Under the pieces are notes generated by a model. That model had not been told where the DNA came from. It saw only the letters and a list, made by a program, of their open reading frames with translations, and made no database searches. Below are positions 5,212-44,763 of a DNA stretch of 64,000 nt, piece after piece. Origin of the DNA: Achromobacter sp. (GTDB taxonomy: Bacteria > Pseudomonadota > Gammaproteobacteria > Burkholderiales > Burkholderiaceae_B); contig NZ_DAMCTG010000009.1 in assembly GCF_032113835.1 (NCBI RefSeq), positions 3,377-67,376 of the forward strand, given 5' to 3'. The position numbers were made by a program, and so were the translations under genes. Every line of letters starts with the position of its first letter. The stretch's first letter is position 1.

Positions 5212-5269
5212 ACGCGCGGGCTGACTGGCGCGGGGCGGTGAGAATCCGCCACCGCGTTCATCACGATGT

Positions 5270-6514: not shown

Positions 6515-6804
6515 GATGGTGACGAGGGTGATCCCTCGTTAAGGCCAGGCGAAATGATACCTACTGTGCGGCGCCTGATTCATCCATGGGAACGGTATTG
6601 GGCCTGCCTTTGGTTTGAAGGCGCTAAAACCGCCCGGAACCGCTTGCCGGCAAACTGCTTCCATACTCCATATGAAGTATGCGTGTCCTTATGCCACGAT
6701 TTAGGATCCCGAGTGTATTGGCCGTGCCGCATCAATTCGCGGAACTGACAGGAGGCCTTCAGAACATCGTTAAGAAGCCTCTAGTGAACAGTGTGGAGAC
6801 TACG

Positions 6805-7566: not shown

Positions 7567-7621
7567 GGCTACCTAACTCATAGATCGACCGCCGAGAAGA
7601 CTTACGTGCAGGAAACCGACG

Positions 7622-8494: not shown

Positions 8495-8503
8495 GAAGAC
8501 ACG

Positions 8504-9985: not shown

Positions 9986-10010
9986 ACGGACTTCACTAGG
10001 AGATTGACAC

Positions 10011-10772: not shown

Positions 10773-10802
10773 GTGCGAGCGTCCTGCTGGATAGCCCAAT
10801 GA

Positions 10803-30227: not shown

Positions 30228-30393
30228 CTTGGCAGCTGTGATTCACGCACCCGATTCGCATCTCAAGGAGGCTGACATGTACTCTCAGACCGCTTCGCCT
30301 ACGAAACGTCGTAATTTCACAAACGTGTGGTATTGTTTCAATACTATTCAAATAGTAATGCTGACTCCCCTAGTAGTTTGATGACGAATCGCC

Positions 30394-31272
30394 ATGGACT
30401 TTGAGATTCCCTCTTGCCTGACTGATCAGCCCGCCCTCTCAGAAGCGTATCTGGCATATCAATCAAGTAGACAAACGTTGAACGAATCGGGCCTGAAAGT
30501 GGCAGCGTGCGGTGTCTACAACGCAGGAAAAAGTTCATTATTGAATACGTTGGTGGACCGTTTCGACGCCGAAACGGAGGCTTTCAGGACCGGGGACGTG
30601 CGAGTTACCACGGAAGTTTCCGAGCTGAAATTCAATCAGCTGACGTTCGTCGACATGCCCGGCGTCGACGGTTCCTCGGAAGATGATGAAACCGCCTGGC
30701 AAGGCATTCTTCGCAGCGATTACTTCCTGTATGTCCACCGCCTTCGCGCCGTCGAGTTTGAGCAATCCGAGCTTGATTTCCTTAAGCGTCTGAAAGATGA
30801 GGTGGATGACATCGATTCACGGCTGGTACTCGTTATCAGCCAGATCGACGACGTCAGCAGCGACGAAGATGTGATTCGCAACACCGCCACCATCCGCGAC
30901 ACGTTTATCAAGGCGGCCGGTTTCGAGCCTGAACAGACTTTTTCCGTGTCGGTAACTCGATACGTAAAAGGGATGCGTGAAGGCAAGCAGGGGCTGACCA
31001 CTCGCAGCGGGATCCCGCCGCTAAAGCAATGGATTGACGTAATCAGCAGTCCTCCCGCGCAGGTCCAGTGGGAGCGTCTCCGCACCGATCGCCTAAATAG
31101 TCAGAGAGAAGCCTTGGCGGCGCAAATTCTTGCGCTCGCCGAGCAAGTGGACAGCGACATCCATGACGCAATGGAGAAGCGCCAATCGCGCCTGCGTTCG
31201 TTGGAAGAGGATATGCGAGGTCTGCTTCAAACAATCAAGGGCGCGTTGGCGCGCATTGATTCCCTAGCCTGA
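30394..31272 (+). CDS. Small dynamin-like/HSR1-type P-loop GTPase with C-terminal coiled coil
   Basis: G1 GVYNAGKS (30511-30534), G3 DMPGVDG, G4-like VISQID. The C-terminal third is helical and heptad-like (REALAAQILALAEQVDSDIHDAMEKRQSRLRSLEEDMRGLL). Confidence 0.8.
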   Translation: MDFEIPSCLTDQPALSEAYLAYQSSRQTLNESGLKVAACGVYNAGKSSLLNTLVDRFDAETEAFRTGDVRVTTEVSELKFNQLTFVDMPGVDGSSEDDETAWQGILRSDYFLYVHRLRAVEFEQSELDFLKRLKDEVDDIDSRLVLVISQIDDVSSDEDVIRNTATIRDTFIKAAGFEPEQTFSVSVTRYVKGMREGKQGLTTRSGIPPLKQWIDVISSPPAQVQWERLRTDRLNSQREALAAQILALAEQVDSDIHDAMEKRQSRLRSLEEDMRGLLQTIKGALARIDSLA

Positions 31273-31328
31273 CAAGGCACCTGCTCAGCGCCTTCCTCTC
31301 CTCAGGATCTTCCCAAAAGGAAAGTTTT

Positions 31329-31871
31329 ATGTTGCCCTTGCTTTTTGCCGGAGGTCTCGTGGCAGGCCTCGGAAAACTGATTTACGACGCAGTAACTTCC
31401 GATAGCGATTCTTCGCCTAGCTCTCCTTCGGTTGACGAGCAGGCAAAGTCGGCCCAGTCGCAACGAAAAAAAGAACTGCGAACTGAAGCCAGTAGACGAC
31501 TGCTGGCCGATACCGAGACGGCGGTAACGTTCCTGCTTGAGAAGCACGCAGTTCTCCTGACGGGTCGCGCAAAAACACCTGCAGCGCAAGTAACAGACGA
31601 ACCCGCACGCACACTAAATCCTGCAGCGAGCTGGCCTATGCCCACGGGAGTGTCGGGCTCCACCACAGGTTCCTCGACTGACGAGGACGTCCTCTCCATG
31701 CGCAACTTGCGTGACTTGAGCGGAGCCCGGCCGAGCAAAAAGGGATTCGACGCGCTGAAACCCTTAACCGATGAGTTGACTTACACGCAGGAATACCTGC
31801 AAGAGCGTAAGACCATCGCGAAAATGCGCAAACAGCGCGACGCACTTAGAACCCTTGCCGAGGCGCTATGA
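31329..31871 (+). CDS. Small membrane-anchored protein (N-terminal TM helix, disordered linker, C-terminal helix)
   Basis: MLPLLFAGGLVAGLGKLIY is a TM segment. It is followed by a Ser/Pro/Thr-rich region and a basic helical tail. AAGGAAAG precedes the ATG. The stop overlaps the next start (ATGA at 31868-31871). Confidence 0.65.
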   Translation: MLPLLFAGGLVAGLGKLIYDAVTSDSDSSPSSPSVDEQAKSAQSQRKKELRTEASRRLLADTETAVTFLLEKHAVLLTGRAKTPAAQVTDEPARTLNPAASWPMPTGVSGSTTGSSTDEDVLSMRNLRDLSGARPSKKGFDALKPLTDELTYTQEYLQERKTIAKMRKQRDALRTLAEAL

Positions 31872-33748
31872 AAAACAACCCCATGACGCGCAGACCCGAC
31901 CTTGCTGCCGACGACGAAAAGCGCGCAATGACCCGCGATGAATTTCTGCAGGTGTTTCGAAACCTCGCGGGCCGGTTTGAGGAGAATCAACAGAAAGCCT
32001 CTCAGACCGAACACTCCTTCTTTTCCGGTTTGAACACCTGCCGCGACCTCGCAGGCATCAACCCGTTTGAGTCCAGCAGACTTGACGACGACCACCCATT
32101 GCGTCAGCACCTCCATGGCGCAGTTGATCGGATCAAGGACGTGTTTGTAGCGTGGGATGAGACCATCGACAAACTCGAGACACACGCGACCTTCAAAAAG
32201 CAGATTGAAGATTCGCTGTTGGTTTTCGTATATGGCAAGGTCAAGGCCGGCAAGTCTTCGCTCGGCAACTACATTGCCCGGGGATGCACCAAACCTGTAC
32301 CGATGGCGGCCGGTGAGGCTGGCGCGCCCGTGTTTTTTGTGCAGGAAGGCCGCGAACTCACGGAAAAGGTGAGCGCCGAATCCATTCGTCGAGCGGGTGC
32401 CTTTAAGGTTGGAGAAGGTGAGACGACCAGCGCAATTCAGGGCTTTCAGTTACCCGGACTAACCTGGGTTGATTCTCCTGGTCTGCATTCCAAGCATGCG
32501 GAAAATGGCGAATTAGCGCAGAAGTATGTGGACGCTGCTGACCTGATCCTCTACCTCACAAATTCCATGGCGCCTTGTAAGCGCAGCGATCTGGAAGAGC
32601 TGAAGACGTTGGGGAGCAAAGAGCACAATCTGGCGGTCTTGATCACTGGTAGCGACCAGTGGATTGAGGATGAAGACGAGAATGGCGACCCGCTCAAAGA
32701 GCTGGCAATGAAGACGCAGACCGTTCGCGAACAACAGATCCATTATGTCCGCGACTCATTGCGAAAGCAGCACTGCGATGTCCAAAGCAAGTCAACCGGA
32801 GTCATGGACAAGACCTTGCAGCGCGCAAAAGTGCATTCGGTTTCGGTCGTCTACGCCGAAGAGCACCCTGATAGCGTCGGCATGCAGTCCAGCGGCATGG
32901 GAGCCATGTTGTACGACGTAGCGATGCTTGCCCAGAGCGCAGGCGTACGCGACAAGCTGGTCCGCCCGCTCAAAAATCTACGTCATTTCTTGAATGTTAT
33001 GCGGACTGCGCATTTGCCAAAGATTCAGTCCGCCCTCAACGGACTGACTGCGTCCATCGCCACGACGAAGAGCAAGGCTGAAACCGATGCGCGTCAACGA
33101 ATCCAAGGGATTGCACTGCGCATCGCTCCGGCCATCGATGCTTTGATCGAACAGCACGCAAGCGCCAAAGACAGCCGGGCATTCAAGACCGCGCTGGCGC
33201 AGGCGTATTCACGCTGGTTGGGCGAGGCCCGGGATTCCATAGCGGATGCATATGCAAATTCCCTCGGCGAACGTCTGACGCGCGCGATGGATTCCGCTAT
33301 TGACCTACTTCCCGACTTCGAGGACGTCAAAAAATCAATCCCGCGTCGCTCGACCGTGAACGCAAAGCGAGGCGCCGCATTGGGCGGCGCGCTGTCCGCA
33401 CTGGCAGCGCTGGCCGTACCGGGTGGCGTACTGCTAGCTGCTGGAGCGGCGGTCTTATCCTCCGCCCTGGGCGGGTTCGCAGGCAAAAAGATTGGCGCCA
33501 CGTTGGATGACACCGAGATTGCCGAAATGGTCATTGGCAACAACGCGAATGAGGTGGGTGCAAAAGCTCGCGCGGTGTTAAGCGAAAAATTCAGACGCGA
33601 AAGCGAAACCACGCTCACCAACTTGCAGTTGAGTTGCTATTCCGAGTTGGAAGCGTGGCTTTCCGGCCTGAACCGGGAGGTGAATCAGGTGACCGCAAGA
33701 ACCGAAGCGTTGTTGTCCGAATTGGACGCGCAACTAACCAACGCCTGA
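31868..33748 (+). CDS. Bacterial dynamin-like protein (GTPase + helical stalk + hydrophobic paddle)
   Basis: G1 GKVKAGKS (32234-32257), G3 WVDSPGLHS, G4-like LITGSD. A long helical region follows. A Gly/Ala-rich hydrophobic hairpin GAALGGALSALAALAVPGGVLLAAGAAVLSSALGGFAG (about 33371-33481) is typical of BDLP membrane paddles. Confidence 0.85.
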   Translation: MKNNPMTRRPDLAADDEKRAMTRDEFLQVFRNLAGRFEENQQKASQTEHSFFSGLNTCRDLAGINPFESSRLDDDHPLRQHLHGAVDRIKDVFVAWDETIDKLETHATFKKQIEDSLLVFVYGKVKAGKSSLGNYIARGCTKPVPMAAGEAGAPVFFVQEGRELTEKVSAESIRRAGAFKVGEGETTSAIQGFQLPGLTWVDSPGLHSKHAENGELAQKYVDAADLILYLTNSMAPCKRSDLEELKTLGSKEHNLAVLITGSDQWIEDEDENGDPLKELAMKTQTVREQQIHYVRDSLRKQHCDVQSKSTGVMDKTLQRAKVHSVSVVYAEEHPDSVGMQSSGMGAMLYDVAMLAQSAGVRDKLVRPLKNLRHFLNVMRTAHLPKIQSALNGLTASIATTKSKAETDARQRIQGIALRIAPAIDALIEQHASAKDSRAFKTALAQAYSRWLGEARDSIADAYANSLGERLTRAMDSAIDLLPDFEDVKKSIPRRSTVNAKRGAALGGALSALAALAVPGGVLLAAGAAVLSSALGGFAGKKIGATLDDTEIAEMVIGNNANEVGAKARAVLSEKFRRESETTLTNLQLSCYSELEAWLSGLNREVNQVTARTEALLSELDAQLTNA

Positions 33749-33808
33749 TATTCAATCGGGCGACACCGTGACGTCGGCTGCCCTTAGTTATTCCAAGACA
33801 TTACCATT

Positions 33809-35458
33809 ATGAAGACCGAAAACCCGCTAGTTCGCTTGCTCGATGACTTCTCTGAGATCCGTCCCGTCCTGGACTCCGTTTTTGAGGGGGACGCCAACGC
33901 GTTGGCGCGAGTAGCGCAGACCGCAGAAAAGTTGTCCAAAGACGCAAGGGAGGGACAACTCCAAACGCTGGTGTTCGGTCATTACAACGCGGGCAAATCA
34001 ACGTTCATCAATGCGTTGATGGGCGAGGAAGTTGCGCCCACGGGAGACGTACCGTTAACCGCACGCATCAATCCTTACGACTGGCATGGCCATCTACTCT
34101 TTGACTCACCAGGCATCGATGCACCGATCGATCATGAAATGATCACGGACGATTTCCTGCAACATCGGTGCAACGCCATCATCTTCGTGATTTCGACAGG
34201 TGGAGCGGTCGAGGAAGCGTCAACGTGGGAACGCCTGTGTTCATTCGTCAAGGACAAGAAGGCGGTACTTATCGTCATCAACGACAAGTCGGGCCTGGAT
34301 CTCAACGGAACCGAATTCGTGCGGATCCGGACGACGGTCTATCAGAATATGCAGTTGGCGGCAGCTAAGTTGGGCATGGAAGACCCAGCCGAGCATATCA
34401 ATGTAATTCACGTCAAGGCACAGACCGCACTCAAGGCACGACTGGAGAACAAGCCGACGCTGTTGGCGCGAACAGGTATCCAGGACGCTGAGGATGTATT
34501 GCGGAGATTCTTCAGTACGGCCACGGAGAAGATGCTGCGCTCGGACAGCGAGCGGGCGCGCAAACTGGTCAACGAAGCCATCGAGCGACTGGCGAAGCAA
34601 TCCGGTGACAGCGGCAGTATCGCGCTGACCGAATGCCGCAACAGGGTCGAGCAGGAGCGTACGCGCCTCGAACTCGCGCTTGTTGATGCAGTGCGAAGAC
34701 TCGTCGCGCGTGAAGTGCAAGAGACCCAAAACGCTTTGGCCCGTTTCGAAATGAACGATGCCGAACAGGTGAAGCAACGCCTCATTGAACACTTGGAGCA
34801 CTCGCAGGCGCGGATCCGGCAAGGGATTGAAAGGCAACTGCAAATCGAGTTTGAGAGCACCGATATCGTGGTCCACGACGCGGCCAAGTTGCTGTCCCAG
34901 TTGGTCACCAAGGGCAGCATGGGGTTCGACGATGTGGAGATGCGTGCTTCCGGATTTTCATATGACGGCGAATCCAGCAAATCCGGTGAAGCATCGAGTT
35001 CGGCTTGGTTCGATGCTTTCAAGTCGATTAATACCGAAAAATGGACAGAGGCGGGCATCAAGGAACTGCTGAAACAAGGCAAGGGCTGGTTCCCCAGCCT
35101 GTTTAAGGGAATTGGCCCCAAGACCATGGGGAAATGGGCGAGCACGGCCGGTCGGGCGGTCGGCCCCCTCCTGGCGATCGGCCAGGGAGCCTGGGAGCTG
35201 TATCAAGCCAGCCAGGAGGAAGCAGAGCACCGCGAGCGGCACCGCAAGTTTGTCGAACAGGTGATGGCAAGTGTTCGCCAGTCCTTCAGCGACGCGGTCA
35301 CCGAATACGAAGTGAAGATCAACGAAATCTCTAAAGGCGCCCTGACTCCCATCCTGGAAGCGTTGGACCAACGAGCGATTGAACTGCAATCGCGGAACGA
35401 AGCCCAGCAAGCGATGCAGGAACGTTTGGCAACTTGGACGCGAAAGCTCAACTATTGA
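33809..35458 (+). CDS. Bacterial dynamin-like protein (GTPase + helical stalk)
   Basis: G1 GHYNAGKS (33977-34000), G3 FDSPGIDAP, G4-like VINDKSG. The C-terminal half is predicted to be long helices. The hydrophobic segment (GRAVGPLLAIGQGAW) is much weaker than in the preceding protein. Confidence 0.85.
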   Translation: MKTENPLVRLLDDFSEIRPVLDSVFEGDANALARVAQTAEKLSKDAREGQLQTLVFGHYNAGKSTFINALMGEEVAPTGDVPLTARINPYDWHGHLLFDSPGIDAPIDHEMITDDFLQHRCNAIIFVISTGGAVEEASTWERLCSFVKDKKAVLIVINDKSGLDLNGTEFVRIRTTVYQNMQLAAAKLGMEDPAEHINVIHVKAQTALKARLENKPTLLARTGIQDAEDVLRRFFSTATEKMLRSDSERARKLVNEAIERLAKQSGDSGSIALTECRNRVEQERTRLELALVDAVRRLVAREVQETQNALARFEMNDAEQVKQRLIEHLEHSQARIRQGIERQLQIEFESTDIVVHDAAKLLSQLVTKGSMGFDDVEMRASGFSYDGESSKSGEASSSAWFDAFKSINTEKWTEAGIKELLKQGKGWFPSLFKGIGPKTMGKWASTAGRAVGPLLAIGQGAWELYQASQEEAEHRERHRKFVEQVMASVRQSFSDAVTEYEVKINEISKGALTPILEALDQRAIELQSRNEAQQAMQERLATWTRKLNY

Positions 35459-35474
35459 TCGATAGCGCCATTCG

Positions 35475-35510
35475 CCCCGATCCCCCTATAGCAAGGCGCG
35501 GTCATCGGGG
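35475..35510 (+). terminator. Weak hairpin between the GTPase module and the nuclease/helicase module
   Basis: CCCCGAT (35475-35481) pairs with ATCGGGG (35504-35510) and is followed by TTTA. The loop is large (22 nt), so this is only a weak candidate. Confidence 0.25.
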
Positions 35511-35639
35511 TTTACGCAGACGGATTCGCGTCGACGTCCCACTTCGGCAAGCTGCCAGAAAGGGCGTCGGGCGGACACATTGTCAGCGCAGTGCCGGACG
35601 CCCGTGCGTGCCGGTGTGATGAATCCATGAACAGAGCAG

Positions 35640-36956
35640 ATGACTATGCAGTGGGGTTTGTTGGGACCGGCGGCGCTGTCCGGAGAAAGGCGGACGAGGA
35701 CCTTGGGCATCGGGCGCGCTGTCCGGCGCTTTAATGAACTGGCCGTGCCGGGTACGGGTGGTGTCTGGTTCGGCAAGCAGGTCTTCCTTGCAATCCTGGG
35801 AGTCCGCGTGGCCGAACTGGCTCGCGACGCAAGAATGCCCGTTGGCAATATCGAATGCGCCAATGCGATCGAGGCGTTGGCATGCTGGCTTGGCTACAAC
35901 GAGAGCAAATGGGCGCCGCACCCGCGCTTGCGCGGCATCAACACATTACCTCGTGAACACGCCCTGGATTTTCGTACGTTGCGCCGCCCGGGCTTTTACG
36001 TTTCACAACCCACGCGCATGGCGGTTGGGCAAAGTCTGATGCCTCTGGGGTTGGCGGAGGGGCCTCGCCGGCGCTTCAACGCCCTAGCAACCACCGAGGC
36101 CGGCAGAAACTTGATCGCTTTGGCATGTGGCGACGGCGGGCGGCACGACATCGTGACGCAACTGCTGAACTGGGTGCAGGGAAAATCTGTCAGCTGGCCA
36201 CCGCGTTTCGTGAAGCTGCTCTCTCCTTGCGTGCCGCTCACACTCGCCGCCCGGGGACTGCTCCACTCTCAGTTTATTCTGGGGTCAGATAAAGAAGACG
36301 GCACACACAAGGATCGACGGCGCGCTGCGTTGCGATGGGTTGACGACCTGCGCAGTCACCCCCCTTCAGGGCCGCTGGGCTGGGAGGATCGGCCTGCAGC
36401 CATCGTCGATGACGCGCATTGGAAGGATTTACAGGCAGGCGCGCAACTCATGGCTTGTCGCGCGCAAGCCATAGTCGTGCTCGATGAGCTTGAGCGCAAA
36501 CTCGCCCTGTCTCCCAAAGAAATGCTACGCGTCGAAGAAGCGGCAGGAATGCTAGGCGACGAGCTTGCCGATCTAAAGGTGGCCGCTGATCGTTATCTAT
36601 CGTTTTCGCATCCCGATGCGGACGCCATGGCTTTTGGTCGCGAATGCGCCCTGCCTTCTACTTCCGATCGGCTCGAGCATCTGTTGCGCCGAGACGATCG
36701 GGTACTGCGGCTTGTTGCGCGCGAAGTCAAACCTGGACCAGCATTCCGCCGTGCGATGCGCAACGAAATCGCATCAGATCCGGCGCTGTCCGCGGATCCT
36801 GAAGACGCCGGCGTATCCGACGGCATCATCGACTGGCCCGCGAACCTATCGTTCCGAGTTCGCAACCTTTATGTGCTTAACCGAGATTTGCTCGAAGAAC
36901 CGAACGCGATGCGTAACGAGACCACAAACCAGATCTTCGTGGACGCCGAACTATGA
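35640..36956 (+). CDS. Hypothetical protein (no recognisable motif), first gene of the nuclease/helicase module
   Basis: 438-aa ORF. The stop overlaps the next start (ATGA at 36953-36956). I could find no catalytic or nucleotide-binding motif by eye. Confidence 0.7.
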   Translation: MTMQWGLLGPAALSGERRTRTLGIGRAVRRFNELAVPGTGGVWFGKQVFLAILGVRVAELARDARMPVGNIECANAIEALACWLGYNESKWAPHPRLRGINTLPREHALDFRTLRRPGFYVSQPTRMAVGQSLMPLGLAEGPRRRFNALATTEAGRNLIALACGDGGRHDIVTQLLNWVQGKSVSWPPRFVKLLSPCVPLTLAARGLLHSQFILGSDKEDGTHKDRRRAALRWVDDLRSHPPSGPLGWEDRPAAIVDDAHWKDLQAGAQLMACRAQAIVVLDELERKLALSPKEMLRVEEAAGMLGDELADLKVAADRYLSFSHPDADAMAFGRECALPSTSDRLEHLLRRDDRVLRLVAREVKPGPAFRRAMRNEIASDPALSADPEDAGVSDGIIDWPANLSFRVRNLYVLNRDLLEEPNAMRNETTNQIFVDAEL

Positions 36957-38944
36957 AGGCGCCCTCCTTGTTGCACTTGTTCGACGCGCCGGACGACTAC
37001 AACGGCCTGTTTGGCTGGGTATGCGGCTATTCTGGCGACGATCTGTTTCTCAACGAGGCGGCTGAGCGATTTACCCGTCGCACGCATGCGCAGCGCGCGA
37101 AGGCGGGCGAGATCTCATTGGGATTGATCCTGGATCCGCAGCATGAACCTCTATCGCTGCTCGATGTGCCAGGCGTCGCCCACCTTCCCTTGCGCGACGC
37201 GAATCTCCAGCCGTTCAAGCTGATGCACGCCAAGGTCGCCCTACTGGGCTTCCGCAACGCAGACGCCGATCAATGGCGGCTGCGCTTGATCGTCTCGACC
37301 GGCAACTGGACCCGACAGACCGTTGAGGAAAGCCTGGACCTTGCGTGGACGATCGAAGTGTCTTCTGCGGACCTGAACGCGGAGGCGCGTGACCTGTCAT
37401 TGCGATGCGCCGACGTAAACGCTGCCTCTGAATTTTTGAACTGGCTCGCCTCGCATTTCGATACCCGCATCCTTGAAGCCATGACGGAAAACCCGTGCGC
37501 GGCGGATCGTATCAGCCGGTTCAACGGGTGGGTCAGCCAATGCGCATCTCGGTCGCAGGGGCATACCCCCCGGTTTTTCGACAATCGCTCGCACGGCCTT
37601 CTTGAACAGCTTCCCGCCTTGATCGAGAAGCACGCCGGCAAGGTTCGCCGCAACTATCTGGCCATGGCATCGGGCTTCTTCGAGGATTCGCCTCAAGCTG
37701 GAGCGGACAGCCCGGCCGAGCAGGTTCCCACTGTGCTGGCCAGTATTGAAGATGCATTACGCGCACAAGACATGCTGACACGCAGCGCTCTGGTCGAGAT
37801 CTACGTCAACCCGGATGGTTGCCAAGCGGTAGCCCGCTGTCTGGATGCGATGACGAAGCGCCAGTGGAGGGTCGTGGAGCCGGGACAACCCGAACAAGTG
37901 TTTCGCGCGGACGTCCGACGCACGCTGCACGCGAAATTTCTCCTGGGCGGCAACGATGTCGGCGATGCCTGCAGTAGCGGCTGGCTCTATCTGGGATCGG
38001 GGAATCTTACCCGTCCCGGCTTCGTCGAGCGTGCGCGTCGGGCGCGCGGCAACCTCGAAGCGGGGGTTGTTTTTTCCTTGCCAAGAACGCTGTGGTTGCC
38101 GTCCAAGGATCCCTCGGTACCGGCAATGACCGTATTATTGCCAATCCAGTCTGATGGCGTTCCCATAACGGTCACTGACCATCTCAAGGCAGGCGACCCC
38201 ATGCCGGAGCTCAACGGATCTTTTGTTGCCGGCCCGATAGCCTATTTGCAATGGATCCCAACGGAAGACGCAGGGCTATTACGCGCACCTGGCCGCAGCA
38301 ACTTGGACTTTGACGTGCTGGGTCCGGATGGGCAAACCTGCCCCAGGCTCGGACTGGACTGGCTGTGGCCAGGGGGGGCGCCTCGCCAGGCGAGGTTGCG
38401 TTGGGGAGTGCACGGGAATCACCAGCAGCAAGTGCCGGTGGTCGACCAATATGGCCGGATCGCAGGCGCGGAACTACCCGGACTGGCACTGCAGGATCTC
38501 GCAGCCCAATTGCTCAATTTTCCTGCGATTGACGATGGCGATGACGACAATGGCGACGGCGACGCCGATCAAGATCCGTCAAACCAGCGCCACCCCGACG
38601 CGCGCAACTCGGCCAGTCCTCCCCCCACGGCAGCGATACGGACGATGATGACGCAATTAGAACTCATCGCTCAGAAGCAGGTTCAAGTGGCAGTCGCCGA
38701 CTGGTCGGCATGGTGCCACCGACTTGAGCAGATCCTGTGCCAGGCGCGGGAGAGCACCGCGCTGGCCGATTTTCGTCGTCTGAAGATCAATCCGCTCAGT
38801 TGCCTGCTGCAAGCGGCCTTCCGCCCCGTCTACGCGAACGATGCCCGCACACCAAGCGGTCGGCGCTACGAAGAAGCATTGGAACGCGTCGCGGAATCGT
38901 GGGGCGTGCGGAGTGGATACCTGGCCTTTGGAGAGGATGAATAA
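36953..38944 (+). CDS. Phospholipase D-family (double HKD) protein, nuclease-like
   Basis: HKD motif 1: LMHAKVALLGF ... LIVSTGNWT (37226-37312). HKD motif 2: LHAKFLLGG ... LYLGSGNLT (37928-38008). A C-terminal region of roughly 300 aa is unassigned and includes an acidic D/G tract. The stop overlaps the next start (TAATG at 38942-38946). Confidence 0.85.
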   Translation: MKAPSLLHLFDAPDDYNGLFGWVCGYSGDDLFLNEAAERFTRRTHAQRAKAGEISLGLILDPQHEPLSLLDVPGVAHLPLRDANLQPFKLMHAKVALLGFRNADADQWRLRLIVSTGNWTRQTVEESLDLAWTIEVSSADLNAEARDLSLRCADVNAASEFLNWLASHFDTRILEAMTENPCAADRISRFNGWVSQCASRSQGHTPRFFDNRSHGLLEQLPALIEKHAGKVRRNYLAMASGFFEDSPQAGADSPAEQVPTVLASIEDALRAQDMLTRSALVEIYVNPDGCQAVARCLDAMTKRQWRVVEPGQPEQVFRADVRRTLHAKFLLGGNDVGDACSSGWLYLGSGNLTRPGFVERARRARGNLEAGVVFSLPRTLWLPSKDPSVPAMTVLLPIQSDGVPITVTDHLKAGDPMPELNGSFVAGPIAYLQWIPTEDAGLLRAPGRSNLDFDVLGPDGQTCPRLGLDWLWPGGAPRQARLRWGVHGNHQQQVPVVDQYGRIAGAELPGLALQDLAAQLLNFPAIDDGDDDNGDGDADQDPSNQRHPDARNSASPPPTAAIRTMMTQLELIAQKQVQVAVADWSAWCHRLEQILCQARESTALADFRRLKINPLSCLLQAAFRPVYANDARTPSGRRYEEALERVAESWGVRSGYLAFGEDE

Positions 38945-41535
38945 TGGATTGGAACGCAGTCGCGTCGACACTGATCGAGTCTGCCGAGAAAGCCGAGGGA
39001 TCCGCAGGTGGCGCATGGTCATTGAATGATGGCCAACGCCGCAGCGTGATGGCGCTAGCCCGTCGCATAACGAAAAATGGCGTGGTTATTGCCGACGAGG
39101 TCGGCATGGGAAAAACCCGCATCGCCGTGACCCTGGCCCGCGCCGTCATCGAACAAGGTGGGCGGGTTGCTGTGCTCGTACCCCCTGGCCTGGGATTTCA
39201 ATGGCAGCAGGAAATGCACGAGGGCGGCGTGGAATGTCCACCCTTGCTAAGAAGCCTGGAACAGTATTTCAAGCCCTGGGACATCAGCCAGGGCGTCTCG
39301 CCGTCATGGTCAACGCAGGATGTCGTACTACTGTCACATCAAATCGCAAACTGGCGTATTGGCGAAGGTACCCGCGCCCCATACTGGTCCTTGCTGCCGC
39401 TGTTGTACGCCACATGGCGCAAGGTCTGCGATGGCCGCTATCCCAGACATTTCCACGCAGCGCCCGAACTATCCGATCCGCGGATTCGTGCTGCGGCCGA
39501 AGACATCGTGGCTTGGGCAGAGCGAGAAGGAGGTATTCCCGTCGATTTCCTGAATAGGCTCGTGACAGAGGCGCCGTGGCCAGCGGCGATGAACTCTGGC
39601 GAGTACCGCTCGGGTACCGATCTTCGTATAGCGCTGGAACGAGCCGTGGGTATCGGCTTAGGATTTTTCGATCTCATCATCATCGACGAGGCGCACAAGA
39701 GCCGGGGCGACGCGACGGGGCTATCGCGAGTACTGAATAATGTCGCTCTGACTCCCGCCGACGGTCGCAAGCTCGCCATGACGGCCACGCCCGTTGAACT
39801 TGATGCCGAGCAATGGCAGGACGTGCTGGACCGCATTGCCATTGAGACAGCAGACGGCCGGTTCTTGCCCGATCATGAGCAAACGTCGCTTGCTATAAGC
39901 AGCTATGAAAAGGCAGTCGACGCCGTCAAAGCGCAGCCGAACGACGCCGAAAAGAGGGCGAACTTTCGGGTCGCGGCGCGCGAGTTCGAAAAGACGCTGG
40001 CTCCGTATCTGGTTCGGCGCGACAAGCGCGAATCCCAATCTGTGCAGACATTCGCGCTTCACTCGGGCTTGTCACCTCATGCGTATCGTCGAGAACGTCA
40101 GCTCATCATTGATCCAACGACGCTTTCACCCGCTTGGCAGCAAGCGATATGCGCGGCGGAAGCGCTATCCGTCGCCGCTTCGCAAGGAACCTTACCAGCA
40201 GCGCAACGGTTACGGCTGACGGTGGGCAGCGGCCACGGCATCGCCAAAGTCATTGATCAGCTTCAGCAGGATGACATTGAAGATTCCGAGCAAATGGCGG
40301 CTGACCGTTCGGCCGAGAATGTGACGAATTCCGAGTCGTCGAGATCCCAGCGCGTGGATTGGTGGCTCAGCGTGTTGCGTCAGACCTTGACGAACAAGAA
40401 CGCACTTCTCGACCACCCCGCCATACAAATCGCGGTTCAAGAAATTGAGAATGCCGATGCCAGGGGTGAAAAGGTTCTGGTTTTTGGCCGCTACACCGCT
40501 CCCATGAAAATGCTGGTCGACTTGTTGAATGCTCGTCAGATGCTCAGGGCCTTGCGGGACAACCGCCCGTGGCCTCAAAGCGGCGTGCGTGAGAGCGAAC
40601 ACGACGCGGTGAAAGCGGCGCAGCGTCAGTTGAAAATTCTGTCGGATGAGTCGATCGACAGTATCAATGCCCAATTACAGATTCAGTACGAGGGCTTAGA
40701 GGCCCGTCGCCAGACGGCCCGCGACCACCTGTTCAATAACCTTCGCGCCGGGCTTGAAGCGCATCCCGACAACAGCGCCGCAAAGCTCCTGTTTGGCGCA
40801 TTCGTGAGCAATCCCGTTGGACAGGCTGCCGTTACGCGGGCGGTGATGGAGTTACTTGCCCGCGATGAAGCGAGTCCGCAGGAATGGGCCGACGCCTTCG
40901 TGAACCTCGTCGACGCGGCCATGGACCGCGAGGACATTGACGAGCGCGGCGAAGCCGGTCTGAATGAGGCGGGAGCGGCCGCTTTGTGGCCGAAACTGGC
41001 GGAACGCTTTGACGACGAATATCGCAACCCGCAGGGTGGATTTGCGCGATTGATGTACGGCGAAACAAAGCATGTGACCCGCCGATTGCTGCAGCTGGCT
41101 TTCAATCGTCAGGATAGCTTTCCCAGGGTGCTGGTGGCGCAATCTGTTGTTGGACGCGAAGGGCTGAATCTGCATAAGGCGTGCCGCACAGTTCTGCTGC
41201 TGCACCCTGAATGGAATCCAGCGGTGGTTGAACAACAGATTGGGCGGGTGGACCGGCTGGGCAGCCGATGGGAACAGTTGCTTGACGCGGCGATCGCAAA
41301 GGGCGTTCGAGGCACAGATCTACCGCGCATCGAAATCCTGCCCATCGTTTTCCAGGGCACATATGACGAGCATAACTGGATGGTTCTGAAATCGCGATGG
41401 GATGCGTTGAGGGCGCAACTTCACGGCACCGTGCTTCATGTACCTGATGTTAATGAGGATCCCCTGCTGCGTGAGCTCGCAAATGAAATCAATGGCGCGG
41501 CACCAAATTTTTCCCCTAAACCGCCCCCTATTTGA
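38944..41535 (+). CDS. SNF2-family helicase/translocase
   Basis: Motif I ADEVGMGKT (39094-39117), motif II IIIDEAHKSRG (DEAH at 39685-39696). C-terminal RecA lobe: KVLVFGRY, VLVAQSVVGREGLNLH, motif VI EQQIGRVDRLG. Confidence 0.9.
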   Translation: MDWNAVASTLIESAEKAEGSAGGAWSLNDGQRRSVMALARRITKNGVVIADEVGMGKTRIAVTLARAVIEQGGRVAVLVPPGLGFQWQQEMHEGGVECPPLLRSLEQYFKPWDISQGVSPSWSTQDVVLLSHQIANWRIGEGTRAPYWSLLPLLYATWRKVCDGRYPRHFHAAPELSDPRIRAAAEDIVAWAEREGGIPVDFLNRLVTEAPWPAAMNSGEYRSGTDLRIALERAVGIGLGFFDLIIIDEAHKSRGDATGLSRVLNNVALTPADGRKLAMTATPVELDAEQWQDVLDRIAIETADGRFLPDHEQTSLAISSYEKAVDAVKAQPNDAEKRANFRVAAREFEKTLAPYLVRRDKRESQSVQTFALHSGLSPHAYRRERQLIIDPTTLSPAWQQAICAAEALSVAASQGTLPAAQRLRLTVGSGHGIAKVIDQLQQDDIEDSEQMAADRSAENVTNSESSRSQRVDWWLSVLRQTLTNKNALLDHPAIQIAVQEIENADARGEKVLVFGRYTAPMKMLVDLLNARQMLRALRDNRPWPQSGVRESEHDAVKAAQRQLKILSDESIDSINAQLQIQYEGLEARRQTARDHLFNNLRAGLEAHPDNSAAKLLFGAFVSNPVGQAAVTRAVMELLARDEASPQEWADAFVNLVDAAMDREDIDERGEAGLNEAGAAALWPKLAERFDDEYRNPQGGFARLMYGETKHVTRRLLQLAFNRQDSFPRVLVAQSVVGREGLNLHKACRTVLLLHPEWNPAVVEQQIGRVDRLGSRWEQLLDAAIAKGVRGTDLPRIEILPIVFQGTYDEHNWMVLKSRWDALRAQLHGTVLHVPDVNEDPLLRELANEINGAAPNFSPKPPPI

Positions 41536-41609
41536 TACGCGAGGCGCCGCGCAAAGCCTGATTCCACCCCTCGCGCGGCAAAATTCTTTTGCGCAAACTG
41601 GAACATACG

Positions 41610-42578
41610 ATGACGCGTCTCGAGTTGGTCGACCATCTTGCAATACAGTTTGCCCACGCGCAGAAATCAGAACGCTGGGCGATGTACCGTCTGATTGCGC
41701 CAGTGGTTGACCATGCCAACGCCAGCATGGGATTACGCGATTATTTTGAGTTCAATCAGACCAGCCTGCACGGCACGTCGCAATCAGTCGATATCGCGCT
41801 GCTTGACAACTCGGGCTTGCCCCGAGTCATGATTGAGGCCAAGCGCCTTGATCGCGCCATCGCCGCAGAACAGATTGCGAAGTATCTGCCCGCAGATACG
41901 CGCGGCATCGTCACAAACGGGCTGCATTGGGTCTTGTGTCTGAACGGAAGAGACAAGCTGGTCACATTGTGCGATGCCAAGAGCCGTGAAATGCGCCCCC
42001 ATGCGTTGGATGAAATCGTCGCATTCATTCGCGGCGAGTCGCTATTGCCTCAGGAATGGCGAAGCCAACAGGATGGCTACGTCGCATCGTTCATTAGACC
42101 GGAACGGCTAACCAAAACGGCATCTGCGCAGCGGGCCGTCAACGCCGTGACAGTTGTGCGCGAGATGCGCGGCTTTCGCGCTGAACTGGACCGGCTTCCC
42201 GGAATCTCCCCGCTGGACCGAGTCCTGCTCACAGCGATGGCGCAAGCGTTTGAGGAACTGGGGCAGATATCTTCTACGCTGCGAATCGAATTTCGCAAGA
42301 CGAGGGTCAGCATTTTCGGCGAGTGCCTGGACGGCAGGCGCATTGCGCGTCTTGAGTTAGGCAAGCGCCAGCCAGACGTCCTGATCCTTACGGAGCTTGT
42401 TCAGGGTGACGAGATTCTCTGCGGCCTGGCACAACCCGCGCCGCATGACAAAGGGCCGCACATGCGAAGGTACCGGTTGAGTCATGACATACAAGCTGCT
42501 TCGTTCGGTCGTGCGATGGCGGCATTGCTGAACGTTTGTGACAAACCTAATAAAAATCGCGCTGTGATGTCGGCATAG
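41610..42578 (+). CDS. PD-(D/E)xK nuclease-fold protein resembling the N-terminal domain of type I restriction HsdR
   Basis: SVDIALLDNSGLPRVMIEAKRL (D at 41790, ExK at 41835-41843), followed by AAEQIAKYL ... GIVTNGLHWVL. This matches the D...ExK...Q..Y...TNG..W layout of HsdR_N-type domains. ATG 41610 is preferred over the TTG at 41589. Confidence 0.65.
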   Translation: MTRLELVDHLAIQFAHAQKSERWAMYRLIAPVVDHANASMGLRDYFEFNQTSLHGTSQSVDIALLDNSGLPRVMIEAKRLDRAIAAEQIAKYLPADTRGIVTNGLHWVLCLNGRDKLVTLCDAKSREMRPHALDEIVAFIRGESLLPQEWRSQQDGYVASFIRPERLTKTASAQRAVNAVTVVREMRGFRAELDRLPGISPLDRVLLTAMAQAFEELGQISSTLRIEFRKTRVSIFGECLDGRRIARLELGKRQPDVLILTELVQGDEILCGLAQPAPHDKGPHMRRYRLSHDIQAASFGRAMAALLNVCDKPNKNRAVMSA

Positions 42579-44119: not shown

Positions 44120-44319
44120 CGACTGCTTTCCTGTGAACAACGGCGGTCGCTGTGGCGCAAACGACCGGGGCGATTGTATCTGCGCCATCTGTCTTGCCGG
44201 TTTCGCGCAGATCAAGGAGACCGCATTGGTCCTGGATTCAGGCTGGCCGCGCGGCGGCGCACCATTTGGTGCGATAGACTCCCGGCTTGTTTGGGATTGA
44301 ATCAGCAGGAGTTCACGCA

Positions 44320-44763
44320 ATGAGCAGCATTTTTCCAGACGATCTGTGGGCGGTGGGCGAAGCCCGCATCAACGGTCTGCCGGTCGTCATTCGCTTTCGC
44401 ACCGGGCTGCCGCCCGAGTCCGATCGCCAGGTCAACGACAACCTGATCATCATCACCTGGGCGTATCAGGGCATCGAGACCGGCATGCCGAACGACGAAG
44501 ACAAGCTGCGCACCAATGCGTTTGAAGAAGCCATCGAACAGGGTTTCGAGAATTCGGACGCCGGCGTGCAGGTGGCATGCCTGACCGGTAATCATCAGAA
44601 AGAGTGGCGCTACTTCACGCCGAATGTCGAAGCCTTCCTGGATGCGTTCAACACGTGCCTGGCGGGACATCCGGTCTATCCGATTGAACTGCGCATGTTC
44701 AAGGACCCTGACTGGAATGCCTTGTCGGGATTGCAGCCCGAAGGATCTGAGCAGCTGCATTGA
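44320..44763 (+). CDS. DUF695-like protein
   Basis: 147 aa. The start WAVGEARINGLPVVIRFRTGLP ... LIIITWAY resembles DUF695 family proteins. CAGGAG precedes ATG 44320. Confidence 0.6.
   Translation: MSSIFPDDLWAVGEARINGLPVVIRFRTGLPPESDRQVNDNLIIITWAYQGIETGMPNDEDKLRTNAFEEAIEQGFENSDAGVQVACLTGNHQKEWRYFTPNVEAFLDAFNTCLAGHPVYPIELRMFKDPDWNALSGLQPEGSEQLH

What the first reader, a model, noticed from the sequence alone, without database searches (positions are those of the whole stretch)
30394..42578. Are the GTPase module and the nuclease/helicase module one eight-gene system?
All eight genes share strand, composition and island boundaries. The only sizeable internal gap (35459-35639, 181 nt) contains just a weak hairpin with a 22-nt loop and no clear terminator. 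I do not know of a described physical link between membrane-remodelling dynamin-like GTPases and a PLD/SNF2/PD-(D/E)xK DNA-targeting set. If they are functionally coupled (membrane sensing or sealing plus DNA degradation), that would be new biology. The alternative is two independent systems stacked in a defence island, which is common.
Basis: inference. Interest (0 to 1): 0.7.

Follow-up and report, generated by a model that had tools for sequence, protein, structure and literature searches.

The report
Three stacked defence modules, not one
The eight genes are three separate, independently mobile candidate anti-phage modules placed side by side, but the dynamin-like module and the nuclease/helicase module sit next to each other in unrelated bacteria more often than chance predicts, which hints at an optional partnership.

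Summary
The eight same-strand genes and the 181-nt gap are real. They are not one conserved system.

**Three modules**
- **A, g1-g4 (30394-35458):** a four-gene membrane-anchored dynamin-like GTPase cassette of the Eleos/LeoABC type. It is collinear in about 80 metagenome loci.
- **B, g5-g7 (35640-41535):** an Azaca-like trio made of an all-alpha protein, a double-HxK PLD enzyme and a DEAH SF2 helicase. It is collinear in all 68 of 80 species-level loci that are long enough.
- **C, g8:** a solitary PD-(D/E)xK gene found elsewhere in unrelated islands.

**Evidence for separateness**
- Outside the window's own lineage, 75 of 79 trio loci have no dynamin-like gene within 10 kb.
- About 77 of 80 GTPase loci have no trio.
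- Sister Achromobacter islands carry 7.7 kb (three genes) between A and B, and lack g8.
- Klebsiella plasmids keep A beside only an 81-codon stump of g7.

**The twist**
- Dynamin-like cassettes of at least four subfamilies directly flank the trio in at least six independent arrangements, in either order and any orientation. Two are tightly packed (10-12 nt).
- After WYL regulators, they are the trio's commonest immediate neighbour.

**Verdict:** stacked autonomous modules. A facultative A-B partnership is plausible but unproven.

The parts
30316..30345 (+). Promoter-like site (TTCACA-18-AATACT, 9 of 12) 49 nt upstream of g1. It is the only + strand consensus match in 29.9-43.0 kb.
   Evidence: Two sites were found against 4.3 expected in shuffles, so it is not above chance. 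Listed only as the candidate entry point for transcription.
30394..31272 (+). g1: 292-aa small GTPase, first gene of module A. P-loop GVYNAGKS at 40-47, DMPG at 87.
   Evidence: (MMR_HSR1 42 bits, Dynamin_N 42 bits, PADLOC LeoA 1e-21). Homologue present at the same position in 56 of 80 GTPase loci; the rest are cut by contig ends.
31329..31871 (+). g2: 180-aa small protein with an N-terminal hydrophobic helix (MLPLLFAGGLVAGLGKLIY), a Ser/Asp-rich linker and a charged C-terminus. Predicted membrane anchor of module A.
   Evidence: sequence; 49 of 62 proteins in the same slot of other loci have an N-terminal hydrophobic 19-mer (KD >= 1.6), although their sequences fall into several unrelated clusters. 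No Pfam or PADLOC family.
31868..33748 (+). g3: 626-aa dynamin-like GTPase (LeoBC-like). P-loop GKVKAGKS at 123, DSPG at 202. Overlaps the g2 stop by 4 nt.
   Evidence: (Dynamin_N 45.8 bits; PADLOC LeoBC 4e-19).
33809..35458 (+). g4: 549-aa dynamin-like GTPase (LeoA-like), last gene of module A. P-loop GHYNAGKS at 57, DSPG at 99.
   Evidence: (Dynamin_N 58 bits; PADLOC LeoA 1e-25); the family profile matches BDLP, mitofusin, SynDLP and the C-terminal part of LeoA (4aur, 3e-5).
35459..35590 (.). Module junction: about 130 nt with no counterpart in the sister Achromobacter islands. No terminator, promoter or structured RNA detected.
   Evidence: In L081/L082/L168 this position holds three genes (NERD-UvrD 543 aa, AddB-like 898 aa, AddA-like 1064 aa), about 7.7 kb.
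35591..35639 (+). Leader of about 50 nt that travels with the trio (about 80% identical upstream of g5 homologues in L081/L082).
   Evidence: Homology with the sister islands resumes at 35583-35591, not at the g5 start codon.
35640..36956 (+). g5: 438-aa all-alpha protein of unknown fold, first gene and signature of the trio (module B).
   Evidence: no Pfam or PADLOC family, and no DUF6361/ZacA match in any of 25 members. AF2 model with pLDDT 82; no PDB fold match; only 518 representative clusters among 1.84 billion proteins.
36953..38944 (+). g6: 663-aa PLD-superfamily protein with two invariant HxK...GN motifs (H92-A-K94...G117-N118; H326-A-K328...G348-S-G-N351). Predicted nuclease. Overlaps g5 by 4 nt.
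   Evidence: PLDc_2 20.6 bits, sub-threshold; ZacB 8.5e-10; invariant in 77 homologues. No PDB sequence relative. The single-sequence AF2 model was unusable.
38944..41535 (+). g7: 863-aa SF2/SNF2-like ATPase (GMGKT at 54-58, DEAH at 248-251, motif VI QQxGR at 764-768). Overlaps g6 by 1 nt.
   Evidence: PDC-M27C 2e-21, DrmD 4e-17, ZacC 1e-10; RapA helicase-C region.
41589..42578 (+). g8: solitary PD-(D/E)xK-type gene of about 322-329 aa (D68...E83-A-K85). The likely true start is the ATG at 41610. This is module C.
   Evidence: Homologues sit alone in unrelated islands: next to CBASS and integrases in L166, next to an AddAB-like pair and restriction enzymes in L167, and among phage/ICE-like genes in L165. 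Absent from all trio and GTPase loci except L001.

Best explanation
The 12.2-kb tract is a composite defence island in an Achromobacter genome. It is built from three cassettes that each exist on their own elsewhere.

**Module A (g1-g4)** is a four-part, membrane-associated dynamin-like GTPase machine.
- It comprises a small GTPase, a small N-terminally anchored membrane protein and two dynamin-like proteins with intact P-loops.
- It is a divergent relative of the Eleos/LeoABC anti-phage system.
- Inferred: it acts at the inner membrane by GTP-driven remodelling or sealing during infection.

**Module B (g5-g7)** has the architecture of Azaca: an unknown adaptor, a PLD-family nuclease and an SF2 helicase.
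- Inferred: the three proteins form a complex in which ATP-driven translocation by g7 licenses DNA cleavage by g6.

**Module C (g8)** is a stand-alone PD-(D/E)xK nuclease-like gene.

The modules do not depend on each other. In this genome they may be co-transcribed by read-through, because no terminator separates them.

On top of this, A-type and B-type cassettes are found adjacent more often than random stacking predicts, in variable order and orientation. The best reading is co-selection of two complementary layers (a membrane stage and a DNA stage), or sharing of the same WYL-regulated island slots. They are not subunits of one machine.
For: **Shown: each module is autonomous**
- The g5-g6-g7 trio is collinear in 68 of 80 species-level loci spanning Burkholderiales, Pseudomonas, Desulfovibrio, Planctomycetota, Acidobacteriota and others. 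Of the other 12, 11 are cut by contig ends and one is degraded.
- g1-g4 and g8 are found only in L001, the 95-97% identical Achromobacter MAG.
- The arrangement g1, anchor slot, g3, g4 is collinear in the 80 metagenome loci (g3+g4 in 77; g1+g3+g4 in 56). This includes the closest relatives, L085 (59% g4 identity) and L086 (53%), and both lack the trio.
- Sister Achromobacter islands read WYL, g1-g4, NERD-UvrD, AddB-like, AddA-like, g5-g7. They sit at a different chromosomal site and have no g8. DNA homology to the window is limited to 30427-35449 (71%) and 35591-41541 (76%).
- 31 Klebsiella, Raoultella and Citrobacter plasmids carry module A alone, beside an 81-codon g7 C-terminal remnant. That stretch is 92% identical to the trio-then-GTPase contig L093.
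- g8 homologues are solitary.
- GC content steps from 56% to 60% at the A/B boundary.
- Each cassette type has its own WYL/WCX regulator directly upstream in other genomes, within the flanks of 25 of 80 loci for each type.

**Shown: catalytic motifs are intact and invariant**.

**Shown: the adjacency recurs**
- Dynamin_N cassettes abut the trio in L010, L051, L075 and L078, besides L001.
- They also abut it in L093/L094, in the reverse order and with a 10-nt spacer.
- The trios involved are only 40-46% identical to each other, and their nearest relatives lack dynamins. L005 is 94-95% identical to L010, and homology stops at the trio's end.
- Among 132 immediate neighbours of the trio, WYL regulators number 13 and LeoA/LeoBC 4. 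No other family exceeds 3 members, apart from Cas3c (10) and mad8 (4), which I did not trace to individual neighbours.

**From the literature**
- The two-gene dynamin system occurs in about 1% of genomes (10.1101/2022.05.11.491447).
- In Azaca, ZacA, ZacB and ZacC are all needed for DNA cleavage (10.1101/2025.07.10.664194).
- Azaca and Dynamins share GI-hotspot 9 of Pseudomonas LESGI-1 islands (PMC12629846).
Against: - No experiment bears on function. Anti-phage activity of either module is inferred from homology and island context.
- The enrichment rests on small numbers. Excluding the discovery case it is 4 of 79. Binomial P for at least 4 of 80 is 0.009 if the chance of adjacency is 1%, but 0.08 at 2% and 0.57 at 5%. 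The true background for defence-island neighbours was not measured.
- In the window itself nothing rules out a single transcript: same strand, no terminator, and no recognisable promoter in the gap.
- In L093 and L078 the two cassettes are 10-12 nt apart, so they look like single operons.
- Both cassettes diverged by similar amounts between the window and the sister islands although the chromosomal sites differ. So in Achromobacter they have travelled together.
Confidence: 0.75

Rival explanations
1. Facultative two-layer super-system. Where they are adjacent, the dynamin-like cassette and the nuclease/helicase trio work together. For example, GTPase-driven membrane remodelling at the phage entry site, or on phage-derived membrane compartments, senses infection or exposes phage DNA. 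The PLD/helicase complex then degrades that DNA. Each can also work alone with a narrower range.
For: - At least six independent juxtapositions involve at least four dynamin subfamilies.
- All are immediate neighbours, although 10-kb flanks were surveyed.
- The arrays are tightly packed in L093 (10 nt) and L078 (12 nt).
- Dynamin-like proteins are the commonest non-regulator neighbour identified for the trio.
- The two cassettes were retained together in Achromobacter at two different chromosomal sites.
- There is no terminator in the window's gap.
Against: - The orientation is convergent in L051 and divergent in L075. Order is variable, and a 7.7-kb insert separates the cassettes in sister islands.
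- More than 90% of each cassette type occurs without the other.
- No trio subfamily is specific to dynamin-adjacent loci.
- Module A spread on Klebsiella plasmids after losing the trio.
Confidence: 0.2
2. Pure stacking. The adjacency has no functional meaning. Both cassettes are cargo of the same kind of island slot, often behind homologous WYL regulators or in shared hotspots. Recombination at those slots brings them together by chance.
For: - WYL/WCX regulators of one homologous cluster precede both cassette types.
- L093 keeps a 104-aa WYL remnant in front of g5.
- Azaca and Dynamins are both listed as occupants of one Pseudomonas hotspot (PMC12629846).
- Dynamin operons lie next to known defence systems in 60% of cases.
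- With a background adjacency of 2-5%, the counts are not significant.
Against: - Far commoner defence families such as restriction-modification and Gabija do not appear as often as dynamins among the trio's immediate neighbours.
- The trio is very rare: 128 hits among 185,579 species genomes and 518 representative clusters. Yet it turns up beside one clade of module A.
- Every one of the adjacencies is immediate rather than scattered across the 10-kb flanks.
Confidence: 0.3
3. One obligate eight-gene (or seven-gene) system. All genes are subunits or steps of a single machine, transcribed as one operon.
For: - Same strand, short spacers, no terminator in the 181-nt gap.
- L001 keeps the identical arrangement.
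- L093 has a compact seven-gene array.
Against: - 75 of 79 other trio loci and about 77 of 80 GTPase loci lack the partner.
- g8 is never linked elsewhere.
- Sister islands interpose three genes and lack g8.
- Plasmids keep module A after the trio was truncated.
- The cassettes differ in composition.
Confidence: 0.04

Closest known systems
Eleos (formerly 'Dynamins'; LeoA/LeoBC), and LeoABC of ETEC H10407
   Same: - Consecutive dynamin-like GTPases with intact P-loops in defence-island context.
- PADLOC LeoA/LeoBC profiles match g1, g3 and g4 (1e-14 to 1e-26).
- The g4 family profile matches the C-terminal region of the LeoA structure 4aur.
[quoted passage not shown]
   Different: - Four genes rather than two or three.
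- It includes a dedicated small membrane-anchored protein (g2 slot) that is conserved in architecture but not in sequence.
- No DLP_helical (PF18709) domain was detected in g3 or g4.
- The NCBIfam LeoA/HP0731 model scores 17-28 bits against a cut-off of 325.
- Identity to canonical LeoA-type proteins (cluster c27) is confined to the G domain.
Azaca (ZacABC)
   Same: - Three-gene order: uncharacterised protein, PLD-family nuclease, SF2 helicase.
- PADLOC ZacB matches g6 (8.5e-10) and ZacC matches g7 (1e-10).
- HxK and Walker A/DEAH motifs are invariant.
- In Azaca all three proteins and the helicase Walker A are needed for DNA cleavage. This is the mechanistic model adopted here.
   Different: - g5 and 24 relatives show no match to ZacA (PADLOC) or DUF6361 (Pfam), even at E <= 1.
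- The g5 model has no known fold.
- g7 scores better against PDC-M27C and DrmD than against ZacC.
- The trio often carries an upstream WYL regulator, an AAA ATPase plus DUF2779, or an AddAB-like pair.
Fused PLD-helicase anti-phage proteins (NCBIfam NF042964; PADLOC PLD_Helicase) and the DISARM DrmC/DrmD pair
   Same: A PLD-family domain is combined with an SNF2-like helicase. g7 hits NF042964 (3.9e-14), PLD_Helicase (2.4e-11) and DrmD (1e-22).
   Different: - PLD and helicase are separate genes here, with an extra g5 partner.
- No DrmA, DrmB (DUF1998) or methyltransferase is present.
- All scores are far below the curated cut-offs (80 vs 610 bits for DrmD).
Bacillus subtilis DynA (housekeeping bacterial dynamin with a phage-resistance phenotype)
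   Same: A dynamin-family GTPase acting at the membrane during phage infection (PMC8844932, PMC12998192; listed).
   Different: - DynA is a single two-headed chromosomal housekeeping protein, not an island-borne multi-gene cassette.
- NCBIfam DynA model scores are negligible here.

Membership tests
Single conserved multi-gene system (the eight-gene hypothesis) | Components co-occur and stay collinear across diverse genomes | tested here: not met
   - g1-g4 and g8 are absent from 79 of 80 species-level trio loci.
- The trio is absent from about 77 of 80 GTPase loci.
- g8 is solitary elsewhere.
Single conserved multi-gene system (the eight-gene hypothesis) | No independent transcription signals between the parts (one operon) | tested here: inconclusive
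   - No consensus promoter or terminator in 35459-35639.
- The gap is not structured.
- A leader of about 50 nt travels with g5.
- RNA-seq or 5'-RACE is needed.
Eleos / LeoABC dynamin-like defence system | Two adjacent dynamin-family GTPases | tested here: met
   g3 and g4 score 45.8 and 58.2 bits on Dynamin_N against a cut-off of 27. PADLOC LeoBC and LeoA give E = 4e-19 and 1e-25.
Eleos / LeoABC dynamin-like defence system | Intact GTP-binding motifs (P-loop mutants abolish defence in the tested system) | tested here: met
   GxxxAGKS and DxPG are present in g1, g3 and g4 and invariant in the g4 family.
Eleos / LeoABC dynamin-like defence system | Curated family model (NCBIfam NF041922 LeoA/HP0731) or the DLP_helical domain | tested here: not met
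   - NF041922 scores 16.7-27.6 bits against a cut-off of 325.
- PF18709 was not detected in g3 or g4. It scores 1e-121 in the c27-type proteins of L078 and L051.
Eleos / LeoABC dynamin-like defence system | Protects against phage | not testable with these tools
   Context only: WYL regulators and defence genes neighbour the cassette.
Azaca (ZacABC) | Three-gene operon: ZacA, PLD nuclease ZacB, SF2 helicase ZacC | tested here: met
   Gene order and domain classes match. The genes are translationally coupled, with overlaps of 4 and 1 nt.
Azaca (ZacABC) | ZacA carries DUF6361 | tested here: not met
   No DUF6361 or ZacA hit for g5 or any of 24 relatives at E <= 1.
Azaca (ZacABC) | ZacB and ZacC profile membership | tested here: inconclusive
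   ZacB gives 8.5e-10 over residues 89-375 of g6. ZacC gives 1.1e-10 for g7, but 7 other PADLOC models score better.
Azaca (ZacABC) | ATP-dependent cleavage of (modified) phage DNA by the three-protein complex | not testable with these tools
   The mechanism is taken from 10.1101/2025.07.10.664194. Only motif conservation was shown here.
DISARM | DrmA + DrmB (DUF1998) + DrmC core with a methyltransferase | tested here: not met
   Only a partial DrmD-like match for g7 (80 bits against a cut-off of 610). There is no DUF1998 or methylase among the eight genes.
PD-(D/E)xK nuclease superfamily (g8) | D...(D/E)xK catalytic motif in an alpha/beta core | tested here: inconclusive
   - The motif D68...E83-A-K85 is visible.
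- HSDR_N scores 20.6 bits against a cut-off of 25.1. Five homologues carry a precomputed PF04313 hit.
- No structure model was made.

The most novel reading that the evidence does not exclude
Dynamin-like GTPase cassettes and Azaca-like PLD/helicase trios form a recurrent, facultative two-layer defence pairing. The membrane-remodelling module detects or acts on the phage entry site, or on phage-made membrane compartments. That makes the invading DNA accessible to, or triggers, the nuclease/helicase complex. This would be the first functional link between bacterial dynamins and a DNA-targeting immune effector.
Probability: 0.15. Interest if true: 0.8.

Novelty: new variant of a known kind. Interest (0 to 1): 0.5.

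Why it matters
**Annotation.** The tract should be recorded as three units: a four-gene Eleos-like cassette with a membrane anchor, an Azaca-like trio with a new first subunit, and a solitary nuclease-like gene. It should not be recorded as a novel eight-gene system.

**Biology.**
- How bacterial dynamin-like defence systems stop phages is unknown.
- They are repeatedly recruited right beside one rare nuclease/helicase trio, in both orders and on both strands, and sometimes fused into one tight operon. This gives a concrete, testable pairing for synergy experiments.
- It is also a rare handle on what the dynamins might do.
- The Klebsiella plasmid cassette, carried on at least 31 plasmids with a g7 stump, shows the pairing can be broken without loss of the dynamin module. 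That argues for autonomy.

Tried and rejected
- **Transcription signals in the gap.** The consensus scan found no promoter or terminator there. Folding gave z = -1.0. Rfam found nothing in 29.4-45.0 kb. The question stays undecided.
- **tRNA or integrase boundaries.** There are no tRNAs in the window. The flanking genes are a LysR regulator, an aminotransferase, a Sel1-repeat protein and an FAD oxidase, with no integrase or WYL gene.
- **Identity of g5.**
  - Pfam, PADLOC and NCBIfam gave no family.
  - The AF2 model is good (pLDDT 82), but Foldseek against the PDB gave no match (best E = 0.68).
- **PLD fold of g6.** There is no PDB sequence relative. Single-sequence AF2 gave pLDDT 36, which is unusable. 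An alignment-based job was not possible, because only window sequences or proteins returned by the search for homologous proteins may be submitted. The call rests on motifs.
- **Phage origin.** The trio is absent from IMG/VR. For the GTPase family only P-loop fragments matched. A phage origin is rejected.
- **Supplementary tables of PMC12629846.** I searched them for explicit Azaca-Dynamins co-occurrence and found no text hits.
- **DISARM and fused PLD-helicase membership.** Considered and rejected on missing core genes and far sub-threshold scores.
- **Three extra trio contexts.** These gave no dynamin. One has an AddAB-like pair, one an SRA-domain gene, and one a WYL gene plus DUF2779.


Full report
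**1. What is in the window**

Eight + strand ORFs occupy 30394-42578. Spacings are 56, -4, 60, 181, -4, -1 and 53 nt.

Domain content:
- g1 (292 aa), g3 (626 aa) and g4 (549 aa) are dynamin-family/TRAFAC GTPases. Dynamin_N scores 42-58 bits against a cut-off of 27. PADLOC LeoA/LeoBC gives E = 1e-14 to 1e-26.
- g2 (180 aa) has no family.
- g5 (438 aa) has no family.
- g6 (663 aa) has a sub-threshold PLDc_2 hit and a PADLOC ZacB hit (8.5e-10).
- g7 (863 aa) is an SF2/SNF2-like helicase. Its best PADLOC hits are PDC-M27C (2e-21), DrmD (4e-17) and ZacC (1e-10).
- g8 (329 aa) has a sub-threshold HSDR_N hit.

Sequence features:
- All three GTPases have GxxxAGKS P-loops and DxPG motifs.
- g2 starts with a hydrophobic helix followed by a Ser/Asp-rich linker.
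- g6 has two HxK...GN motifs (H92/K94 and H326/K328), invariant in 77 homologues.
- g7 has invariant GMGKT, DEAH and motif VI.
- g8 shows D68...E83-A-K85.

The gap:
- It holds no consensus promoter or terminator.
- It folds no better than shuffles (z = -1.0).
- No Rfam family matches anywhere in 29.4-45.0 kb.

Composition is lower than the flanks throughout, but not uniform: module A is 56.0% GC, the trio 60.0% and g8 56.9%, against flanks of 63.5-68.5%. The organism is an Achromobacter: the closest homologues are 95-97% identical in an Achromobacter MAG.

**2. From the nuclease/helicase side**

I aligned g5 homologues (A1) and used the alignment to scan one genome per species, with 10-kb flanks. 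This gave 80 loci.
- tblastn and phmmer with all eight window proteins show g5-g6-g7 collinear in 68 loci. Eleven more are cut by contig ends and one is degraded.
- The taxa range from Burkholderiales and Pseudomonas to Desulfovibrio, Planctomycetota and Acidobacteriota.
- g1-g4 and g8 appear only in L001, the near-identical Achromobacter MAG.

The trio is therefore a self-contained three-gene cassette. It is also rare: 128 confirmed stretches among 185,579 species genomes, and 518 representative clusters among 1.84 billion proteins.

**3. From the GTPase side**

I aligned g4 homologues (A2) and scanned metagenome contigs.
- The 80 loci show a conserved collinear cassette: g1 homologue, a small gene, g3 homologue, g4 homologue. 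g3+g4 are present in 77 loci and g1+g3+g4 in 56; the rest are cut by contig ends.
- The small gene varies in sequence (several unrelated clusters). In 49 of 62 cases it begins with a hydrophobic helix followed by an acidic/Ser-rich stretch. The slot therefore encodes a membrane anchor.
- The closest relatives of the window's cassette, L085 (59% g4 identity) and L086 (53%), have no trio within their flanks.

**4. The sister Achromobacter islands split the two modules**

g5 homologues at 73-76% identity (A. aegrifaciens and metagenome contigs) and the matching g4 homologue lie in an island with this gene order:
- WYL/WCX regulator
- g1, g2, g3, g4
- NERD-UvrD helicase (543 aa)
- AddB-like PDDEXK_1 protein (898 aa)
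- AddA-like UvrD/PDDEXK protein (1064 aa)
- g5, g6, g7

That island has no g8. It sits between glmS and capsule-type genes. The window's island sits instead between a LysR regulator/aminotransferase and Sel1/FAD-oxidase genes.

DNA homology between the window and these islands is confined to two blocks, 30427-35449 (71%) and 35591-41541 (76%).
- About 130 nt of the gap are unique to the window lineage.
- The last 50 nt or so travel with g5.

The A/B boundary is thus a real cassette junction. Even so, in Achromobacter the two cassettes have stayed in the same island across two chromosomal sites.

**5. g8 is a third, unrelated module**

Its family has 81 proteins of about 310 aa. Members occur singly:
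- beside CBASS genes and integrases in Pseudoalteromonas (L166);
- beside an AddAB-like pair and restriction enzymes in Halioglobus (L167);
- among phage/ICE-like genes in L165.

It is never found with the trio or with dynamins.

**6. The unexpected part: the adjacency recurs**

In the reversed direction:
- L093/L094 carry trio then GTPase cassette as a compact seven-gene array. g7 stops at 6768 and g1 starts at 6778, and the genes overlap throughout.
- Klebsiella, Raoultella and Citrobacter plasmids (31 records) carry the same GTPase cassette at 92% nt identity. Only the last 81 codons of g7 remain upstream, and the unit is bounded by 89-bp inverted repeats.
- The plasmid cassette therefore derives from such a composite by truncation, and it has spread without the trio.

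Among the 80 species-level trio loci, family HMMs and Pfam detect Dynamin_N cassettes directly next to the trio in four more genomes:

| Locus | Organism | Dynamin-like proteins | Position relative to the trio |
|---|---|---|---|
| L010 | Burkholderia | 851 + 582 aa | downstream, same strand |
| L051 | Pseudomonas | 568 + 745 aa (the 568-aa protein has DLP_helical, 1e-121 in its L078 homologue) | downstream, convergent |
| L075 | Pseudomonas | three proteins | upstream, divergent |
| L078 | Duganella | 806 + 568 aa | upstream, same strand, 12-nt spacer |

Independence of these cases:
- The trio proteins of these loci, of the window and of L093 are only 40-46% identical to one another.
- Their nearest relatives lack dynamins. 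L005 is 94-95% identical to L010, yet homology stops exactly at the trio's end.
- The dynamin-like proteins fall into at least four subfamilies.

That makes at least six independent juxtapositions.

**7. Is this more than island stacking?**

Among the 132 immediate neighbours (at least 150 aa) of the trio:
- WYL regulators are the commonest, with 13 members.
- LeoA/LeoBC (Dynamin_N) follow with 4.
- PADLOC also lists Cas3c (10 members) and mad8 (4 members). I did not trace which neighbours these are. mad8 had weakly matched g4 itself.
- No other effector family exceeds 3. The much commoner restriction-modification families do not reach the list.

Supporting points:
- The published prevalence of the two-gene dynamin system is about 1% of genomes.
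- All the adjacencies are immediate (0-1 small gene between), although about 10 kb was surveyed on each side.

The statistics are modest:
- At a 1% chance of adjacency, P(at least 5 of 80) = 0.0013 and P(at least 4 of 80) = 0.009.
- At 2% these become 0.02 and 0.08.
- At 5% they are not significant.

The true background for defence-island neighbours was not measured. Three further trio contexts looked up individually had no dynamin.

A recent survey lists Azaca and Dynamins among the occupants of one Pseudomonas island hotspot (PMC12629846). That fits either reading. A text search of its held supplementary files for the terms Azaca and Dynamins found no occurrences.

**8. A shared regulator family**

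A homologous cluster of WYL/WCX proteins sits directly upstream, on the same strand, of the trio in many loci and of the GTPase cassette in many others. It lies within the flanks of 25 of 80 loci for each type. This has three implications:
- Each cassette is normally regulated on its own.
- Both are marked as defence-island cargo.
- Recombination at WYL genes offers a non-functional route to juxtaposition.

L168 has a single WYL gene ahead of the whole array. L093 has only a 104-aa WYL remnant. The window has none.

**9. What the modules most likely do**

Module B:
- It has Azaca's architecture. In Azaca, ZacA, ZacB (PLD) and ZacC (SF2 helicase) are all required for cleavage of T4 DNA, and the helicase Walker A motif is essential (10.1101/2025.07.10.664194).
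- I infer the same logic for g5-g6-g7.
- It is not a recognisable Azaca member. g5 and 24 relatives have no DUF6361/ZacA match.
- The confident g5 model (pLDDT 82) has no PDB fold match.
- g7 scores better against other SNF2-type defence helicases than against ZacC.

Module A:
- It is an Eleos/LeoABC-type system, in a four-gene form with its own membrane anchor.
- The tested Eleos needs both P-loops and protected only against jumbo phages. Its mechanism is unknown.

Module C is a probable stand-alone nuclease.

None of these activities was or could be tested here.

**10. Verdict**

The eight genes are not one system. They are three stacked, separable modules (confidence about 0.75 for autonomy; about 0.04 for an obligate single system).

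The dynamin-like/trio pairing is nevertheless recurrent enough to deserve a direct test. I put a genuine functional partnership at 0.15-0.2 and meaningless hotspot stacking at about 0.3. The remainder is unspecified co-selection.

Co-transcription in this particular window cannot be excluded, and would not by itself imply coupling.

Noticed in passing
L027 3571-9483; L028 228-6070; L177 2070-7917; L168 13442-19336 (also L081-L084): An AddB-like (PDDEXK_1, about 900 aa) plus AddA-like (UvrD + PDDEXK, about 1050 aa) pair lies directly upstream of the trio, on the same strand, in at least five independent loci. The same pair also occurs without the trio (L167). It could be a five-gene variant of the trio or another recurrent neighbour.
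   Followed up: partly
e.g. L012 8997-9971, L085 4860-5897, L168 4839-5864, L172 9018-9998: WYL + WCX regulators of one homologous cluster sit directly upstream of both the trio and the GTPase cassette in different genomes (within the flanks of 25 of 80 loci of each set). The window has none.
   Followed up: partly
L012 5364-8995; L011; L064; L172 6900-8984; L179 5812-7287: A two-AAA-domain ATPase (about 700 aa) and a DUF2779 protein (about 500 aa) often precede the WYL gene and the trio. The ATPase cluster occurs in 15 trio loci. This may be a further module or an accessory of the trio.
   Followed up: no
e.g. L099 7344-7607; about 30 of the GTPase loci: A small (about 90 aa) CxxCxxCC zinc/iron-chelating-domain protein directly follows the g4 homologue in about 30 loci. 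In some loci it lies instead between g1 and the anchor gene. It is absent from the window's clade (window, L001, L085, L086, L168).
   Followed up: no
L092 2679-2767 and 7910-7997; L171 (Klebsiella pneumoniae pIncFIA_HI1, NZ_CP060424.1 15057-20116): On Klebsiella, Raoultella and Citrobacter plasmids the GTPase cassette, with an 81-codon g7 stump, is bracketed by 89-bp inverted repeats (87% identical). This suggests mobilisation as a unit. The stump is annotated as a 74-aa hypothetical protein.
   Followed up: partly
L085 11744-13375; L168 11731-13362; L148; L149; L086: A NERD + UvrD-like helicase (543 aa) follows the g4 homologue in several GTPase loci. A NERD-domain protein also lies convergent to the trio on the Pantoea plasmid (L172 15886-17850).
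   Followed up: no
L178 7378-7791: A 137-aa SAD/SRA (ScoMcrA-type, modified-cytosine-binding) protein lies 210 nt upstream of a trio. This hints that some trios may be coupled to recognition of modified DNA.
   Followed up: no
L110 (g1, anchor gene, g3, g4, then c27/c28 on the opposite strand): Two different dynamin-like cassettes (the four-gene type and the canonical DLP_helical LeoA type) lie next to each other in one metagenome contig.
   Followed up: no
window 42635-44760: The low-GC tract continues past g8 through a minus-strand 561-aa Sel1-repeat protein and a small ORF, so the island's right edge is near 44.8 kb rather than 42578.
   Followed up: partly
window 4378-11435: A second lower-GC stretch (55-60% against about 65%) carries + strand genes for a PhzF-like protein, a peptidoglycan-binding protein, a class-3 lipase, a PhoD-like phosphatase and three proteins with no family. 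It may be another acquired cluster.
   Followed up: partly
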